Virus record (IMG/VR): IMGVR_UViG_3300021256_000062
Span: 94,918-158,917 of that record
Direction: 5' to 3' (one strand)
DNA: 64,000 bases
From: a virus
Lineage: Duplodnaviria > Caudoviricetes
Part shown: positions 8,379 through 51,039 of the stretch, piece after piece
Layout: each line of letters begins with the position of its first letter
How positions within the stretch are numbered: position 1 is the stretch's first letter
Made by a program: the position numbers and the translations under genes
Notes under the pieces: generated by a model
The model's input: the letters and a program-made list of their open reading frames with translations, nothing else
What the model was told of the DNA's origin: nothing
Databases searched by the model: none

Positions 8379-8531
8379 ATTTTAAGTGTTGATTTTCCTA
8401 GGTTCAACACTAGCTTATAAGCTATCCCACCCATCGGAAGGAGATAAGTCACCACTTTATCTTTCTTTCATTTATCAGATGAACGCTTTATATCTATTAT
8501 AACTGTTCTATAGTAACAGATATAAACTATA

Positions 8532-8607
8532 TGGTGGAGCTAGTCGGGTTCGAACCGACGACTTTCAACTTGCAAAGCTGACACTCTCCCAACTGAGTTA
8601 TAGCCCC
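8532..8607 (-). tRNA. tRNA-Ala(TGC)
   Basis: GGGGCTA start with G3-U70, TCAGC-TTTGCAA-GTTGA, CCA. Confidence 0.95.
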
Positions 8608-8694
8608 AAACATGTCCAAGCTTAAAGTACGAGGACAGAATCCTACTAGAAGATAACTTAATATATTATACAATAATTGTTTTTAATTTTATAC

Positions 8695-8758
8695 AAGACT
8701 CTATTTTGGGTATTATGATTAAAAGTCATAGCCTAAAATAAATTGCGGTATAAGTCTT
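8695..8758 (-). ncRNA. Clamp RNA 5 displaying a Lys(TTT) anticodon stem-loop
   Basis: AAGACT-TATACCGCAA ... AGTCTT-G; TATTTTAGG/CCCAAAATA stem capped by TATGA-CTTTTAA-TCATA. Confidence 0.8.
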
Positions 8759-8792
8759 TTTAAATTGTTCTTTATATTATTTTAAATGATTC

Positions 8793-8898
8793 AAGACACT
8801 TCTTTTTGCGTATACCATTTCGCCACTTAGCACATGCTGCTGAGATAGGATTCGAACCTATAATAATCTAAAAGATTAAGGTTTGCTGTATGTGTCTT
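8793..8898 (-). ncRNA. Clamp RNA 6: YrlA-like permuted tRNA (variable arm, T arm, loop-closed acceptor, D arm)
   Basis: AAGACAC-ATACAGCAA ... GTGTCTT-G; ATAGG-TTCGAAT-CCTAT, CTCAGCA-GCATG-TGCTAAG, TG-GCGAAATGGTATACGC. Confidence 0.8.
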
Positions 8899-8932
8899 TA
8901 TATCAGTAAAATTATTTATTTTATAAGTAATC

Positions 8933-9072
8933 AAGACATTCTTGTTGATTTTAAGTGTGATACCATTACACCACTCCCCTATATAATTAAATATATGGCA
9001 GGGGAGGAATGGATTCGAACCATCATCACTGGAGTTGCAGTCCCTATCATTTAGAATTGCAGTAAATGTCTT
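8933..9072 (-). ncRNA. Clamp RNA 7: circularly permuted tRNA with Cys(GCA) anticodon arm and internal CCA
   Basis: AAGACAT-TTACTGCAA ... ATGTCTT-G; order GGA-CTGCAAC-TCC, GATGG-TTCGAAT-CCATT, CTCCCCT-G-CCA, AT hairpin, AGGGGAG-TG-GTG-TAATGGTAT-CAC. Confidence 0.8.
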
Positions 9073-9081
9073 TATTTTATT

Positions 9082-10713
9082 TTATAACCAAGAAGGTTTA
9101 TCCATCTTTGATATAGTATTTCCAGACCACTTAATTCCAGCTTTAGTGACATTCTCTAAATATGGAATTGAATCATATGTCTTAACATCTAATTCCTTAA
9201 CTAGTGCTAAGAATGGGTCAGTCTCACCATTTAACACCATATTTAAAGTATTAACTGAGAATCCTGATACTAATACAACACCATTTTCATTTTGTGTTAA
9301 TGGAATAGTGTTTGTTCTAGAACATACATTCCAGAATACTAATTTAGGTAATTTATATCCTGCACTAGCATATTTTGTTTGCGCATTTCTAAATACATTA
9401 CTATCACTATTAAAATGATTATAACCATATGAAGAATCAAATTCCATATCTGAAATAATTAAAATTTGTTCAGGCATATCTTCAGGTTTAACCTTACCTT
9501 CAACAGCTGTCTTTAAGATTAAATTGAATACATTCTCAATATTAGTGTTTGAACAATCACTATAACAAAGACAAGTTTGTAATTTAGAATGTAATGATTG
9601 ACACATAGATAAATCTACTAATTTAGCTTGAGATGAGAAAGTAATAAACTTATCTTTAAATGTATCATTTAATCTTTCTGAACAATAAATTGCCAATGCA
9701 GTTGATACATCTAATGCGGTTGTATTACCAGAACCTACTTTTGACGTCATTGAACCTGAACCATCTCTAACAACGATTGTGTTATTTAAACCATCTTTTT
9801 GTTTTAGGTTCTTCCATAATTGTTCTAATGCTTCATCATAATCAGTTAAATGTGAATACCATCCATCACAATTAAAGTATTTAGTAACAATTTCGTGTGG
9901 GAAGTTAACTGAAGAATTAATCTTTACTTCCTTACCATCCTTATCTACACCTACTCTTAATGCAGCTAAGAAATCTCTACGTCTTTCTTCATCGTGTCTT
10001 AAGAAAGCATCCTTATACTTTAAGTTTGCTTTTGATGGAACTTGATTATAATCAATCTTACTCCATTCATTTGCAGATGTATAAGTTTCAATTACCTTTA
10101 AGTATGCTCTTAACTTTGATAAAAGTTGTCTATACTCTTTAGATGTTGCACCAAATGATTTGATGAAAATCTTTGCCAATTTCTTTGTTTTAGGAGATGA
10201 TGCATTTTCAGATGGCATCCACTTAGCTAATAATGAAATTGGTTTGTTATTATTCATATTAGTGAAATCTTGTTTTAATTGACTTAAAACAGTTTGTACC
10301 ATAAAATCTTGATATTCAGTACCAATGAAAACAAATAAGTCATCATATCTACCAAATTCAACTATTTGAGTCTTAATTAAGTCTTTAACAATTTCATCTT
10401 TATTCTTGAAATCTGAAACCTTAATTAAATGATTTAAGGCTACTCTAAATAATCTTCTTTCACCTAATCCTTCTCTTACTCCTCTTACATAGAATAAGAA
10501 TTTTAATAAGTATCTAGCATCACCTTGTTCAGCTAATACTAAATCAATATCCTTACAAATATCAGCATCTGTAAGTTTACGATATGAAGTTACCTTGAAA
10601 TTCATATCTAGTAATGGGTGGAAAGTAGTCTTATATCCCTCCATACCATTTTCAGTAATTGATACATTGTTTTGTACCTTTTTCATAGTTCCATAAAAAT
10701 CCATATTATCCAT
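9082..10713 (-). CDS. DUF2828-family protein (TROVE/Ro60-like helical domain + C-terminal vWA)
   Basis: TENG..., FYVRGVREGLGERRLF, FGRYDDL, LLAKWMPSE, IDYNQVPSKA, MIDAS VRDGSGSM, IISDMEFD, FWNV, VSGFS. Confidence 0.85.
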   Translation of the reverse strand: MDNMDFYGTMKKVQNNVSITENGMEGYKTTFHPLLDMNFKVTSYRKLTDADICKDIDLVLAEQGDARYLLKFLFYVRGVREGLGERRLFRVALNHLIKVSDFKNKDEIVKDLIKTQIVEFGRYDDLFVFIGTEYQDFMVQTVLSQLKQDFTNMNNNKPISLLAKWMPSENASSPKTKKLAKIFIKSFGATSKEYRQLLSKLRAYLKVIETYTSANEWSKIDYNQVPSKANLKYKDAFLRHDEERRRDFLAALRVGVDKDGKEVKINSSVNFPHEIVTKYFNCDGWYSHLTDYDEALEQLWKNLKQKDGLNNTIVVRDGSGSMTSKVGSGNTTALDVSTALAIYCSERLNDTFKDKFITFSSQAKLVDLSMCQSLHSKLQTCLCYSDCSNTNIENVFNLILKTAVEGKVKPEDMPEQILIISDMEFDSSYGYNHFNSDSNVFRNAQTKYASAGYKLPKLVFWNVCSRTNTIPLTQNENGVVLVSGFSVNTLNMVLNGETDPFLALVKELDVKTYDSIPYLENVTKAGIKWSGNTISKMDKPSWL

Positions 10714-10720
10714 CCTTTCT

Positions 10721-10782
10721 AGACACTACCATGTATATCCAACAACCATTAGACTTTACACTATTTGTTGCTGTATGTGTCT
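10721..10782 (-). promoter_or_regulatory. Clamp RNA 8 in the 5' leader of the DUF2828 gene, abutting its RBS
   Basis: AGACAC-ATACAGCAA ... GTGTCT immediately followed by AGAAAGG-ATG. Confidence 0.75.
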
Positions 10783-10802
10783 TATGTATTTTTACAAGTT
10801 CT

Positions 10803-10831
10803 ATTATACCATTATTTAATTACTTTGTCAA
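10803..10831 (-). promoter_or_regulatory. sigmaA-type promoter of the DUF2828/clamp-RNA operon
   Basis: TTGACA-17-TATAAT. Confidence 0.85.
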
Positions 10832-10864
10832 CCCCTTAAAATTGACTAATTAATTTTTTATAAT

Positions 10865-12030
10865 TAAGATGTCCATGTAATACCTACTCATAGGTGTTAA
10901 CAACTCCTTAGGACTGAAGGGGAAGTGGTTTACATCCTTCGTATACTCCTCAAAGTATACCCGCTATTAATTAACTAAATTAAGGCTCAATATTATCTAT
11001 GGATAATATTGGAATAACTTGTGCTATTCTTTTACGCACTTAACCGCACGATTTATCTGTCGCCATCAAGGTTTATGGGTGCGACCCTGAGTTTGCTCTC
11101 TTCTACGCTGTATTCAGACTTCGCACTTATGGTAGCGAGGCACCAATAATTTTAACTGAACAAGGGTCGTTGTATTTCACATTCAGACCCTCAAAACTGT
11201 CAAGTGAATGATATTCTAGGTGTCATTCCCACTATTAATTTGTATTCAACAAGATACTCATCTAAGAGTACCTTGTGTTTTTGAATGTTTTCAGGCTAAC
11301 ATACAACCTTTCGCTAATCTAATAGCACTTTGTGAGGCTCAACCTCACTTGTCTTGAATAATAATTTGGTTGGACTTGAACCAACAATGGCTTTTAACCG
11401 ATAGGCTATGTGTTGCCAATCCCTATCTCATCGTTTCACCCATAAGGCATCTTTTTATTGGATTGAACGCTTGTGATTTCCCTCATTAATCTACAAATTA
11501 TTATTTTATATCAAGAGTTCCCTTTGCTAACGTGTCAGGTGGGTAGACCTATAATGTCGCAGCTCACATCTGCTAGACATTTACTTTTCGAACTGCTTAA
11601 GTCAGTTATTCCTACTTCGCAACTCAGTCCATTACGCTGTTTAATTTTTTCTACATTATAGGCCAAACGGGTTTAAATGCTACTTATGGTTCTCACATAA
11701 TCTTTCCGAAACTAAGTCGGTGCTTCGCATACTAGGAATAGTAAACATAATGTAAACTATTACGCTATTTGATGTATATCCCACATGATTAGGAGTTCTC
11801 ATTTAAATTGTAGTCACTATATAGTTTTCCTTCTAAGATTTCATTTTATATAGCGAAAAAATCAAATCCGCTAGTGTGTGATTAAAACCACATCCACCGC
11901 CACCTTATTTTTCTAAATAAGGAAAATATTTGCTCTTATTCTATGTTCTTTATATCGAGCTAACTTTTAGGAGTTTTTCATCCAATATATTTCAAGGACT
12001 AAAGTTAATTGAAATAATTAAGTTTCTCTA
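10865..12030 (-). ncRNA. Large (~1.15 kb) structured ncRNA candidate (GOLLD/ROOL-like class, family unassigned); ends approximate
   Basis: No credible ORF, raised GC, many hairpins and long-range complementarities, embedded tRNA-elbow domain, TGTATAAT -10 at ~12043-12050. Confidence 0.7.
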
Positions 12031-12060
12031 TTGAGATATTATATTATACAATATTTATTT

Positions 12061-12714
12061 TTAATTTTGTCTATAGGCATATAAGTCATCACCTAGATAT
12101 AATTCCTTACCATCATAACCAGAAAGAAAATGACCTCTTCCATCTAATGATAGACATTCTTCTACTATGGCATCAGTATCTAGACCAATAGTTCCATCTT
12201 TAATTAATCTTCTAACTTGTTCTTGTCCAAAATTAGATACAAACCATTGATAAGGGTCTCCTGCATTTTCAACTAAATATGCAGTATATTGTTCTTTTGC
12301 ATCATCTAAATCAACATCATCATTTAAAATAGGATATTCTTCATCTTCATCATCTGAATCATAATGAATATCATCACCTCTAATGAATCCATTTTGTAAT
12401 AATTCTTGAATAAGTTCATCTTCTTCCATTTCATCTACATAGTATTCCATGTCTTCTTGTAGAGCTTCTTCAAACCAATTCTCATTATCTAATGCATTTT
12501 CAACAATCCAATCTTGGAATGATGGAGTAAATGCTTCTAATCCCATTTCATCTATTGAGTTTTCAATATCATTATATGCAGCGTCATCGGCTTCTGAATC
12601 AGTATATACAGCATATTCTTGGTCACCATATTCAAAATGGTCTTCATCATATCCTTCAACGATGTCTTCAACATCACATTCTAAAAATTTTGCCAATTCT
12701 TCAATCTTTTCCAT
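12061..12714 (-). CDS. Highly acidic hypothetical protein
   Basis: 217 aa, D/E rich, own promoter at 12744-12771 (16 nt spacer). Confidence 0.75.
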   Translation of the reverse strand: MEKIEELAKFLECDVEDIVEGYDEDHFEYGDQEYAVYTDSEADDAAYNDIENSIDEMGLEAFTPSFQDWIVENALDNENWFEEALQEDMEYYVDEMEEDELIQELLQNGFIRGDDIHYDSDDEDEEYPILNDDVDLDDAKEQYTAYLVENAGDPYQWFVSNFGQEQVRRLIKDGTIGLDTDAIVEECLSLDGRGHFLSGYDGKELYLGDDLYAYRQN

Positions 12715-49313: not shown

Positions 49314-49592
49314 TTACTTGGTTTCAAATTGTTCTACATACTTACTGATACTCATATAAGCACCATCTTCATCAGTACCGTCTATCTCAATGTGAATCTT
49401 CTTACCATTTGCCATACATAATGACATTACACCTAAAATAGACTTAAGGTCTATAGTTAAGTTATTTGAAGAACCATCAACACTGATTGTGATATCACTG
49501 ATGAACTCACTTGCATGGTGTACCATTCCTGTACATAAATTTACCAATTTAGTTTCTTTTGGTATGTTAAGTACAAAGTCTATAGTTTTCAT
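49314..49592 (-). CDS. HPr-family protein lacking the His15 motif
   Basis: IDLKSILGVMSL (Ser46 signature), I.IDG.DE; no GLHARP. Confidence 0.75.
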   Translation of the reverse strand: MKTIDFVLNIPKETKLVNLCTGMVHHASEFISDITISVDGSSNNLTIDLKSILGVMSLCMANGKKIHIEIDGTDEDGAYMSISKYVEQFETK

Positions 49593-49664
49593 ATTTCAAC
49601 TTCCTTTCTAAAAATTAAAAAGTTTGGATTAGGTAAAGACTTATACAACTTAATTTATTTTTCT

Positions 49665-49815
49665 AGTCTCTATTAAATCATATAGTACTTACTTAAGAGC
49701 CAAACTCGACTGAGATTCTAGGTTATGCTAGTTTGCTCAGTCTCTTCCTCATTAAAAATTTGTTATCAATCTTCTTTTAAATATTTTTAAATAATTAAGA
49801 TTGCTGTGTGAGACT
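49665..49815 (-). ncRNA. Clamp RNA 9, between the RNA ligase and HPr-like genes
   Basis: AGTCTC-ACACAGCAA ... GAGACT-AG; internal GACTGAG/CTCAGTC hairpin; TGTATAAT just upstream. Confidence 0.6.
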
Positions 49816-49848
49816 TCCTATATTCATAGGTACATAATATTATACAAT

Positions 49849-51039
49849 TTATAAATTATGTTTCATTAAATATTCTGGAGATACTGCCTTGAAGGATAGC
49901 TTACCATCCTTACCTCTAAATACAATACCCTCTCTTAGAACATCCTTATTAACAACTGACTTATCAGTTGCAATCTTTAGTAACTCGTCAACTGTATCTG
50001 GTAGAATAAAGTTCTCATCTAGAATTGGAACCCAAGGGATTGGTGTATCCCATGACTCAAGTAACTTTTTAGCTGTTATTGAATCCCATCTACCATTTTT
50101 AGAATCCTTGAAGTTGAATGCTGCAAAGTGATGACCCTTTAACTTTAAAGGATTACCTTGCCATCCTTCTCCATATGATTCTCCCTGGATACATACCCAA
50201 TCTAAATCTTTATTCTCATTAAGATATTTTTTAAGTTGATTTTCTACATCATATCTAGTTGCCATTTCCCAATAGATATTATCATTACCTTGGTATGTAT
50301 GTTCATTTGAATCATTCCATAATCTAATATTTCTAGAGCATACATAGAATTCAAATTTATTCTTTCCCTTTCTTACTAGTAAGAAAGTAGTAGATGTACC
50401 ATCAATCTTTTCAGTTGCAATTAATGGTGTCTTATCTTGTAGTAAGTAAGGCATATTCTGAATTCTCTCTTCATCAGTTTTAGATACAAATTCAGTTGGG
50501 AATGCTTTCTTCATATCCTTATGACCTTTTTTCATTCCTCTTAAGAATAACCATCTAAAGAATTTATATCTCATTAACCATTTAACTAACTTATTATTAA
50601 AGAACTTCTTATGTTTAGCTTTGTACTGTTTAATAGCTTGTTCTCTAACATCAGATTTTCTATAGTTATCTTCTACTACTGAATATGTTACTCCTAACTT
50701 TTCAGTTAAATCAGTTAATATTTCAGTATTAGGGTCTATACCTAATACATCTAAAGGTAAAATTAGTCCTTGTGATATAACATTAAATTTACCTAATTTA
50801 TAAGTTTTAATCTTATAATGTTTATTAGCAAGGAATTCAAATGCAGGATTTGATTCTGGTACCTTTGAATCAATTTCAAAGAATGCACATTTATCTCCTG
50901 GTTTAAATTCTCCTTTTTTAGTAATTAATGTCCAACCTAGTACATGTGCTAATTCAATATTATCTGCACCTTCAATAGGTTCTATTGAATCAACTACTTG
51001 AACATAGGCCAACATTCTTTTTCCATCTTTATCTAACAA
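49849..51039 (-). CDS. RNA ligase (DRB0094/Rnl2-like)
   Basis: IEPIEGADNIE, FFEIDS, SQGL, KTDEERIQN, TEKIDGTS, QGE, REGIV, SFKAVS. Confidence 0.9.
   Translation of the reverse strand: MLDKDGKRMLAYVQVVDSIEPIEGADNIELAHVLGWTLITKKGEFKPGDKCAFFEIDSKVPESNPAFEFLANKHYKIKTYKLGKFNVISQGLILPLDVLGIDPNTEILTDLTEKLGVTYSVVEDNYRKSDVREQAIKQYKAKHKKFFNNKLVKWLMRYKFFRWLFLRGMKKGHKDMKKAFPTEFVSKTDEERIQNMPYLLQDKTPLIATEKIDGTSTTFLLVRKGKNKFEFYVCSRNIRLWNDSNEHTYQGNDNIYWEMATRYDVENQLKKYLNENKDLDWVCIQGESYGEGWQGNPLKLKGHHFAAFNFKDSKNGRWDSITAKKLLESWDTPIPWVPILDENFILPDTVDELLKIATDKSVVNKDVLREGIVFRGKDGKLSFKAVSPEYLMKHNL

What the first reader, a model, noticed from the sequence alone, without database searches (positions are those of the whole stretch)
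10706..10831. Clamp in the DUF2828 gene's own leader: probable autoregulation
Seen: the transcript from a perfect sigmaA promoter begins ~15 nt before clamp 8, whose 3' arm GTGTCT directly abuts AGAAAGG-ATG. This copy has no tRNA cargo. Inference: free protein binds its own mRNA and blocks translation, matching protein supply to the number of cargo RNAs. The placement independently ties the motif to this protein.
Basis: partly seen in the sequence, partly recalled or inferred. Interest (0 to 1): 0.75.

Follow-up and report, generated by a model that had tools for sequence, protein, structure and literature searches.

The report
Partner-RNA handle in Ro60-like gene's leader
A large gut or rumen phage puts a copy of the short RNA "handle" that marks its Y-RNA-like small RNAs between the promoter and the ribosome-binding site of its Ro60-shaped protein gene, and most related phages do the same, so the protein probably binds its own messenger and limits its own synthesis, though no binding has been shown.

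Summary
On the minus strand a 12/12 sigma-A promoter (10831-10803) is followed about 13 nt after the predicted start by a full handle. Its parts are a 5' arm (10782-10777), a 2-nt spacer, ACAGCAA (10774-10768), 41 nt of cargo and a 3' arm (10726-10721). The arm ends one base before the Shine-Dalgarno stretch (10719-10713).

The protein (DUF2828 + DUF7788) models as a Ro60 ring. Three relatives at 74-78% identity keep the promoter, the handle and the handle/SD junction; two of them carry a compensatory arm change. Among 81 homologues chosen by protein alone, 61 have a handle ending within 45 nt of the SD, and 16 of these abut it. All seven true handle-plus-SD matches in a reverse pattern search precede a DUF2828 gene. 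Cargo-less handles occur almost only at this position. In KVP40-type vibriophages the SD lies inside the handle and the start codon in its 3' arm.

Autoregulation is the best reading (about 0.55) but is unproven. The RNA arrays are tightly packed anyway, and a co-transcribed Y-like RNA that is later cut out fits as well. This scan has already reported the same arrangement in at least four other genomes.

The parts
10803..10831 (-). Sigma-A/sigma-70-type promoter with an extended -10 (TG); predicted start near 10796-10794
   Evidence: 12 of 12, the only perfect match in 8500-12200. The -10 is invariant in L001 and L002 and is present in L006.
10721..10783 (-). Leader handle: 5' arm, 2-nt spacer, ACAGCAA, 41-nt cargo, 3' arm
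   Evidence: There is a compensatory arm change in L001/L002. Handles at the same place were found in 61 of 81 homologues.
10713..10719 (-). Shine-Dalgarno stretch GAAAGGA, starting one base after the 3' arm
   Evidence: It is predicted to be unpaired in the free RNA (probability 0.76-1.0).
9082..10704 (-). Gene for the DUF2828 + DUF7788 (vWA) protein, 540 aa, modelled with a Ro60-like fold
   Evidence: Pfam. (model, pLDDT 77.5); the top 12 PDB fold matches are all Ro60/Rsr/phage Ro60, over the full length.
8695..9072 (-). Three cargo-bearing handles directly after the gene's stop codon (8933-9072, 8793-8898, 8695-8758), the presumed primary ligands
   Evidence: No terminator-like site on this strand between the promoter and these copies.
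10788..10795 (-). First bases of the predicted transcript, complementary to codons 2-4 (10700-10693); a possible outer closing helix, weakly supported
   Evidence: z = -1.2 here and -2.9 to -3.6 in L001, L002 and L006. It is not general in other lineages.

Best explanation
The leader element is a genuine member of the phage's ACAGCAA-handle family. This family is the presumed docking site of the Ro60-shaped DUF2828 protein on its Y-RNA-like partner RNAs. Here it is built into the protein's own mRNA, one base upstream of the Shine-Dalgarno stretch. When there is more protein than partner RNA, the free protein binds this copy. The bound 60-kDa ring keeps the 30S subunit off the ribosome-binding site, so synthesis falls. 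When partner RNAs are in excess they take up the protein and the mRNA is translated. Shown here: the element, its conservation and covariation, its position, the Ro60-like fold, and the link between handle and gene. Inferred: that the protein binds handles, that it binds this one, and that binding represses translation.
For: (1) Conservation with covariation. L001, L002 and L006 (74-78% protein identity) keep the -10, the handle and the junction of 3' arm and SD, while the cargo differs. L001/L002 carry a compensatory A-T to G-C change. (2) Breadth. 52 of 73 distinct 150-nt leaders hold an exact ACAGCAA. Across all loci the motif occurs 472 times on the gene strand and 22 times on the other. 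The complement of the 6-mer at the canonical offset is found for 53 of 60 motifs, against 3-14 of 60 at control offsets. (3) Of 81 distinct homologues chosen by protein alone, 61 have a handle ending within 45 nt of the SD and 16 within 9 nt. The abutting state needs 5-10 separate changes on the protein tree, which also holds four pattern-found rows. (4) Reverse test. Of the 80 listed IMG/VR loci (104 stretches matched) for 'motif, 25-55 nt, 3' arm plus SD start', 7 have complementary arms. All 7 are followed by a DUF2828 gene at 35-71% identity; one is cut off after 30 aa and judged only by its N-terminal motif, and one was matched only after the second ATG was taken as its start. (5) Leader handles are a special subclass. 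None has cargo of 80 nt or more, against 70 of 197 elsewhere (p = 3e-8). Cargo under 25 nt occurs in 9 of 46 leader handles against 7 of 197 elsewhere (p = 6e-4), and 5 of those 7 lie in coding DNA and are probably false hits. Only leader handles are followed by an ORF start within 30 nt. (6) In KVP40-group vibriophages the 3' arm contains the start codon and the SD lies inside the handle. In Vibrio phage MS02 the SD overlaps the 3' arm. (7) There is no room for a promoter between handle and ORF, so the handle is part of the mRNA. (8) The free RNA leaves the SD open, so any block would need a bound factor.
Against: There is no binding, footprint or expression evidence. Spacers between neighbouring handles are mostly 5-14 nt, and handles also follow the stop codon within 5-15 nt, so tight abutment is the norm in these loci. 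In many lineages the handle ends 12-30 nt before the SD, too far for simple occlusion. Many leader copies in relatives carry anticodon-arm cargo like free-standing mini RNAs, so they may simply be the first RNA of the operon. Stems of abutting leader copies are not weaker than those of other handles (p = 0.24). The KVP40 arms never vary and the fold is no more stable than shuffled sequence. Lineages without a leader handle express the gene from a plain leader: L004/L005, L007, Enterococcus phage iF6, Salmonella PHA46, E. coli JH2 and Mycobacterium phage Nicholas.
Confidence: 0.55

Rival explanations
1. The leader copy is simply the first Y-like small RNA gene of a polycistronic RNA-plus-protein operon. 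It is cut out of the primary transcript and works like the other handle RNAs. Its closeness to the SD only reflects the tight packing of the locus.
For: Inter-element spacers of 5-14 nt are typical. Equivalent leader copies carry tRNA-Lys, Asn, Ser or Ile-type anticodon-arm cargo like free-standing minis. M. smegmatis YrlA and YrlB lie upstream of rsr and are processed from one precursor (PMC4201824). Thermus phage phiLo Yrl1 and Yrl2 lie upstream of its Ro60 gene (PMC12135203). Listeria phage CKA15 has three tandem handles between a promoter and the gene.
Against: It does not explain why cargo-less handles are found almost only at this position. It does not explain why no leader handle carries a tRNA-sized cargo (0 of 46). 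It does not explain why in KVP40-type and MS02-type leaders the ribosome-binding site lies inside the handle, where excision would destroy the mRNA.
Confidence: 0.27
2. The bound handle acts positively or neutrally on the mRNA. It could be a 5' structure or RNP that shields the message from 5'-end-dependent decay, or a site that loads newly made protein onto RNA in cis.
For: In this clade the handle lies about 13 nt from the predicted 5' end. The SD stays open in the free RNA.
Against: In many lineages the leader handle is preceded by other RNAs rather than by a promoter, so a 5'-terminal position is not conserved. Handles that enclose the SD or the start codon are hard to reconcile with activation.
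Confidence: 0.12
3. It is a chance match or a decaying relic without function.
For: Some lineages show decayed versions: the L021 type keeps the stem but has lost the motif, and the L008 type has ACAGCAT with G-U pairs. The free-RNA fold is not more stable than shuffles (z = -0.66).
Against: The 16-mer is exact, the arms are complementary, a compensatory change is present, and the element is conserved across homologues down to 35% identity.
Confidence: 0.03

Closest known systems
Ro60 (Rsr) with Y RNAs encoded next to its gene: M. smegmatis YrlA/YrlB, D. radiodurans Yrn RNAs, Thermus phage phiLo Yrl1/Yrl2 (PMC4201824, PMC12135203)
   Same: A ring-shaped HEAT plus vWA protein. Small RNAs closed by a 5'/3' stem, with a conserved motif on the 5' strand just inside the stem. 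The RNAs lie on the same strand, directly upstream of the protein gene. Some carry tRNA-like modules.
   Different: The protein matches Pfam DUF2828/DUF7788 and gives no sequence hit to solved Ro60 chains. The motif is ACAGCAA, not GNCGAAN0-1G or GGUCCGA. There is no Rfam YrlA or Y_RNA hit. No autoregulatory role is described in the parts of these papers I searched.
Autogenous translational control by mimicry of the primary RNA ligand: E. coli thrS operator, ribosomal-protein operons (S8, L1, L20, S15), T4 gp32 and RegA, MS2 coat-protein hairpin (from my own knowledge)
   Same: A copy of the protein's normal RNA target placed at or next to the ribosome-binding site of its own mRNA. This predicts competition between the mRNA and the abundant primary ligand.
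   Different: No biochemical evidence here. The protein family and the RNA motif are unrelated to these systems. The distance between operator and SD varies from overlapping to about 30 nt across lineages.
Listeria phage CKA15/A511 locus (PMC12282133)
   Same: A DUF2828 homologue (CKA15_055), which that paper likens to Rsr by HHpred, lies downstream of tRNA genes. Non-coding RNAs driven by sigma-A-type promoters lie nearby.
   Different: That paper only speculates about Y RNAs and does not describe the handle. In CKA15 three tandem handles fill the 5' UTR, and the last one ends about 60 nt before the SD.

Membership tests
ACAGCAA-handle RNAs of DUF2828 phages (uncatalogued; described by this scan) | Complementary 5' and 3' arms of at least 6 bp that covary between copies | tested here: met
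ACAGCAA-handle RNAs of DUF2828 phages (uncatalogued; described by this scan) | AC(N)GCAA placed 2 nt after the 5' arm | tested here: met
   exact match at 10768-10774.
ACAGCAA-handle RNAs of DUF2828 phages (uncatalogued; described by this scan) | Same strand as, and close to, a DUF2828 gene | tested here: met
   The handle ends 16 nt before the start codon. The motif occurs 472 times on the gene strand against 22 on the other across the loci.
YrlA / Y RNA (Rfam RF02553, RF00019) | Match to the Rfam covariance model | tested here: not met
   No hit at the gathering threshold, none at E up to 10 in 8600-10900, and none in seven cultured-phage loci.
YrlA / Y RNA (Rfam RF02553, RF00019) | GNCGAAN0-1G (bacterial) or GGUCCGA (animal) motif on the 5' strand | tested here: not met
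   The motif here is ACAGCAA. The definition is taken from PMC4201824.
YrlA / Y RNA (Rfam RF02553, RF00019) | tRNA-like T and D arms in the internal domain | tested here: not met
   The 41-nt cargo of this copy has no such arms. Other copies in the window do have them.
Ro60 / TROVE proteins | HEAT-repeat ring plus vWA fold | tested here: met
   the top 12 PDB matches are Ro60/Rsr/phiLo Ro60, E from 4e-9 to 4e-5, about 550 aligned columns, TM 0.41-0.52. The model has pLDDT 77.5.
Ro60 / TROVE proteins | Sequence-level membership (Pfam TROVE, or a hit to solved Ro60 chains) | tested here: not met
   One search gives DUF2828, DUF7788 and a weak VWA_2 only. One search gives no Ro60 chain at E up to 1.
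Autogenous translational operators | A copy of the protein's RNA target at or next to its own ribosome-binding site | tested here: met
   assuming that handles are the protein's target.
Autogenous translational operators | The protein binds the site and represses translation | not testable with these tools
   This needs EMSA, toeprinting and reporter assays.

The most novel reading that the evidence does not exclude
The leader handle is a true translational operator. A Ro60-like protein measures its own level against the pool of tRNA-mimicking Y-like RNAs through a copy of their shared handle in its mRNA. This feedback device has been kept or re-invented in phages of Firmicutes, Campylobacter and Vibrio, and it is testable in cultured phages such as KVP40.
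Probability: 0.5. Interest if true: 0.7.

Novelty: new variant of a known kind. Interest (0 to 1): 0.55.

Why it matters
The handle's place in the gene's own leader gives independent, position-based evidence that the ACAGCAA handle is the docking site of the DUF2828 Ro60-like protein. That pairing is in no RNA catalogue, and I found it in no paper. If the feedback is real, it would be, to my knowledge, the first autogenous control described for any Ro60-type protein. It also offers a simple assay for handle recognition (leader-reporter, EMSA, toeprint). Cultured phages carry the arrangement (KVP40 group, Campylobacter Fletchervirus, Listeria A511/P100 group), so it can be tested directly.

Tried and rejected
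- A single-protein scan of IMG/VR found no relatives. An alignment-based scan was needed.
- The metagenome scan gave only three loci.
I could not test whether the window's unusual cargo is shared by them.
- A profile search against PDB sequences gave no Ro60 hit. Only the fold search did.
- Rfam gave nothing but tRNAs.
- Most hits of the collection-wide pattern search were chance. Only 7 of the 80 listed loci had complementary arms.
- I expected operator copies to have weaker stems than true ligands. They do not (p = 0.24).
- A long-range helix between the transcript's 5' end and codons 2-4 looks conserved in the window's own clade but is not general.
- Free-RNA folds of the window, KVP40 and MS02 leaders are no more stable than shuffles.
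- The relatives of MS02 gave no covariation.
- The CKA15 paper and its supplement hold no coordinates for transcript ends.
- Literature searches for DUF2828, for the motif and for Ro60 autoregulation found nothing relevant.

Full report
**What is there.** The window is a low-GC region (about 28% G+C) with 28 tRNA genes and a tmRNA on the minus strand. Its DUF2828 protein is on record on a contig of about 156 kb.

- The ORF 9082-10704 (minus strand) encodes a 540-aa protein with Pfam DUF2828 and DUF7788 (vWA-like).
- A 12/12 sigma-A-type promoter with an extended -10 lies at 10831-10803.
- The handle starts about 13 nt after the predicted transcription start. It has a 5' arm (10782-10777), a 2-nt spacer, ACAGCAA (10774-10768), 41 nt of cargo and a 3' arm (10726-10721).
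- After one further base comes the Shine-Dalgarno stretch (10719-10713), and the start codon lies at 10704.
Homologues and the database protein start at 10704.

**More than chance.** The 16-mer of arm plus motif is identical to that of the copy at 8883-8898. The window holds 8 matches with up to 3 mismatches, against 0.81 expected.

**The protein.** An AlphaFold model built on 20 homologues (pLDDT 77.5) has Ro60, Rsr and Thermus phage phiLo Ro60 as its 12 best PDB matches, over its full length. Sequence profiles do not reach them. Homologues occur in 701 cultured-phage records, and the mycobacteriophage ones are annotated 'Ro-like RNA binding protein'.

**Close relatives.** Three relatives at 74-78% protein identity (L001, L002, L006) keep the -10 and the handle. 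All keep the exact junction between 3' arm and SD, while the cargo differs. L001 and L002 show a compensatory arm change. Their cargo is a 5-bp stem with a 7-nt loop: the tRNA-Lys(UUU) anticodon-loop sequence in L002 and L006, a variant loop in L001. The window's cargo has no such hairpin. Instead, part of the motif can pair with the cargo, a feature seen only in the window.

**Wider survey.** I used 80 IMG/VR loci found by a protein profile, three metagenome loci and four cultured phages.

- 52 of 73 distinct 150-nt leaders hold an exact ACAGCAA. Across the loci the motif occurs 472 times on the gene strand and 22 times on the other.
- The complement of the 6-mer at the canonical offset is found for 53 of 60 motifs, against 3-14 of 60 at control offsets.
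- Of 81 distinct proteins chosen without regard to the leader, 61 have a handle ending within 45 nt of the SD: 16 within 9 nt, 18 at 10-20 nt and 27 at 21-45 nt.
- On the protein tree, which also holds four pattern-found rows, the abutting state needs 5-10 separate changes.
- In these three classes the distances from arm to start codon cluster near 16, 30 and 42 nt.

**Reverse test.** A pattern of 'motif, 25-55 nt, 3' arm plus SD start' matched 104 IMG/VR stretches, about what chance would give. Of the 80 loci listed, 7 have complementary arms. All 7 are followed by a DUF2828 gene at 35-71% identity. One of them is cut off after 30 aa and was judged only by its N-terminal motif. Another matched only after the second ATG was taken as its start.

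**Leader handles are a subclass.**

- None has cargo of 80 nt or more (0 of 46, against 70 of 197 elsewhere, p = 3e-8).
- Cargo shorter than 25 nt is enriched among them (9 of 46 against 7 of 197). Five of those seven exceptions lie inside coding DNA and are probably false hits.
- Where two handles precede the gene (L037, L051, L059), the one next to the gene has no cargo and runs into the SD.

**Cultured phages.**

- Campylobacter phage QDYZ has two upstream handles, the last ending about 11 nt before the SD.
- Listeria A511 and CKA15 have a promoter, three tandem handles and then the gene.
- Bacillus PK-3 and Thrax2 have a handle about 90 nt upstream.
- Enterococcus iF6 has a handle, then a terminator-like hairpin and a separate promoter-like site.
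- Staphylococcus BE22 and Mycobacterium phage Nicholas have the motif only downstream of the gene; in Nicholas three full handles.
- Salmonella PHA46 and E. coli JH2 have none in the leader.
- In six KVP40-group vibriophages a sigma-70 promoter is followed by a short handle. Its 3' arm contains the start codon and its interior contains the SD. The arms never vary, so there is no covariation to count.
- In Vibrio phage MS02 the SD overlaps the 3' arm.
- KVP40 also has at least two plausible cargo-bearing handles in its tRNA cluster.

**What weakens the autoregulation reading.**

- Elements in these arrays are usually only 5-14 nt apart, and handles follow the stop codon within 5-15 nt. Abutment alone therefore proves little.
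- Abutting leader stems are not weaker than other stems.
- The free leader folds are unremarkable and leave the SD open.
- Y RNAs upstream of rsr are known to be processed from a precursor (PMC4201824).
- Several lineages lack the leader copy.

**Verdict.** The element and its placement are real, conserved and specific to this gene. The most likely mechanism is feedback repression through occlusion of the ribosome-binding site by the handle-bound protein (about 0.55). The main rival is a co-transcribed Y-like RNA that is processed out (about 0.27). The system resembles Ro60/Y RNA in how it works, but it fails the sequence-level membership tests for TROVE and YrlA. I found no paper on the motif or on Ro60 autoregulation. 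Earlier reports of this scan reached the same reading for leader handles in at least four other genomes. Those are not independent evidence.

Noticed in passing
window 49314-49900 (minus strand): The ninth handle copy (49665-49815) also starts about 20 nt after a TATAAT. It ends about 55 nt before the SD of a 92-aa ORF with a PTS HPr domain (49592-49314), just after an RNA ligase gene (49849-51039). It may be a second mRNA carrying a handle in its leader.
   Followed up: partly
window 10788-10795 with 10693-10700 (minus strand): The first bases of the predicted transcript are complementary to codons 2-4. L001, L002 and L006 keep the complementarity (z = -2.9 to -3.6, against -1.2 in the window). 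This could be an outer helix that closes over the handle, the SD and the start codon. It is not seen in other lineages.
   Followed up: partly
window 10767-10773 with 10740-10746 (minus strand): In this copy alone, most of the ACAGCAA motif can pair with the cargo (7 bp, in the minimum-energy fold). The nearest relatives could not be fetched to test this.
   Followed up: no
L020, L024, L033, L034, L044, L056, L008 (20-35 nt before the start codon): Leaders whose handle ends 21-45 nt before the SD carry a small A/U-rich hairpin, typically beginning GGAWT, between handle and SD.
   Followed up: no
L021-L032 type leaders: The stem of a leader handle is kept but the ACAGCAA motif has decayed. The sister clade (L008 type) has ACAGCAT with G-U pairs. 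These look like relics.
   Followed up: no
L208 (Listeria phage CKA15) 1110-1760: The very abundant 'CKA15_059-061' transcripts of PMC12282133 come from a separate structured non-coding region about 1 kb upstream of the handle array, not from the handles. This window likewise has a gene-free RNA island just upstream of the promoter (10853-12033).
   Followed up: no
NC_005083.2 (KVP40) 175156-175366 and 177347-177431, minus strand: Two plausible cargo-bearing handles lie inside the tRNA cluster. The record also annotates five oversized 'tRNA-Pseudo' features of 75-124 nt there, which may be tRNA look-alikes in handles.
   Followed up: partly
PMC12282133, Table 1: The Listeria homologue CKA15_055 was detected in purified virions (20 peptides, 57% coverage). 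The Ro60-like protein may be packaged and delivered with the DNA.
   Followed up: no
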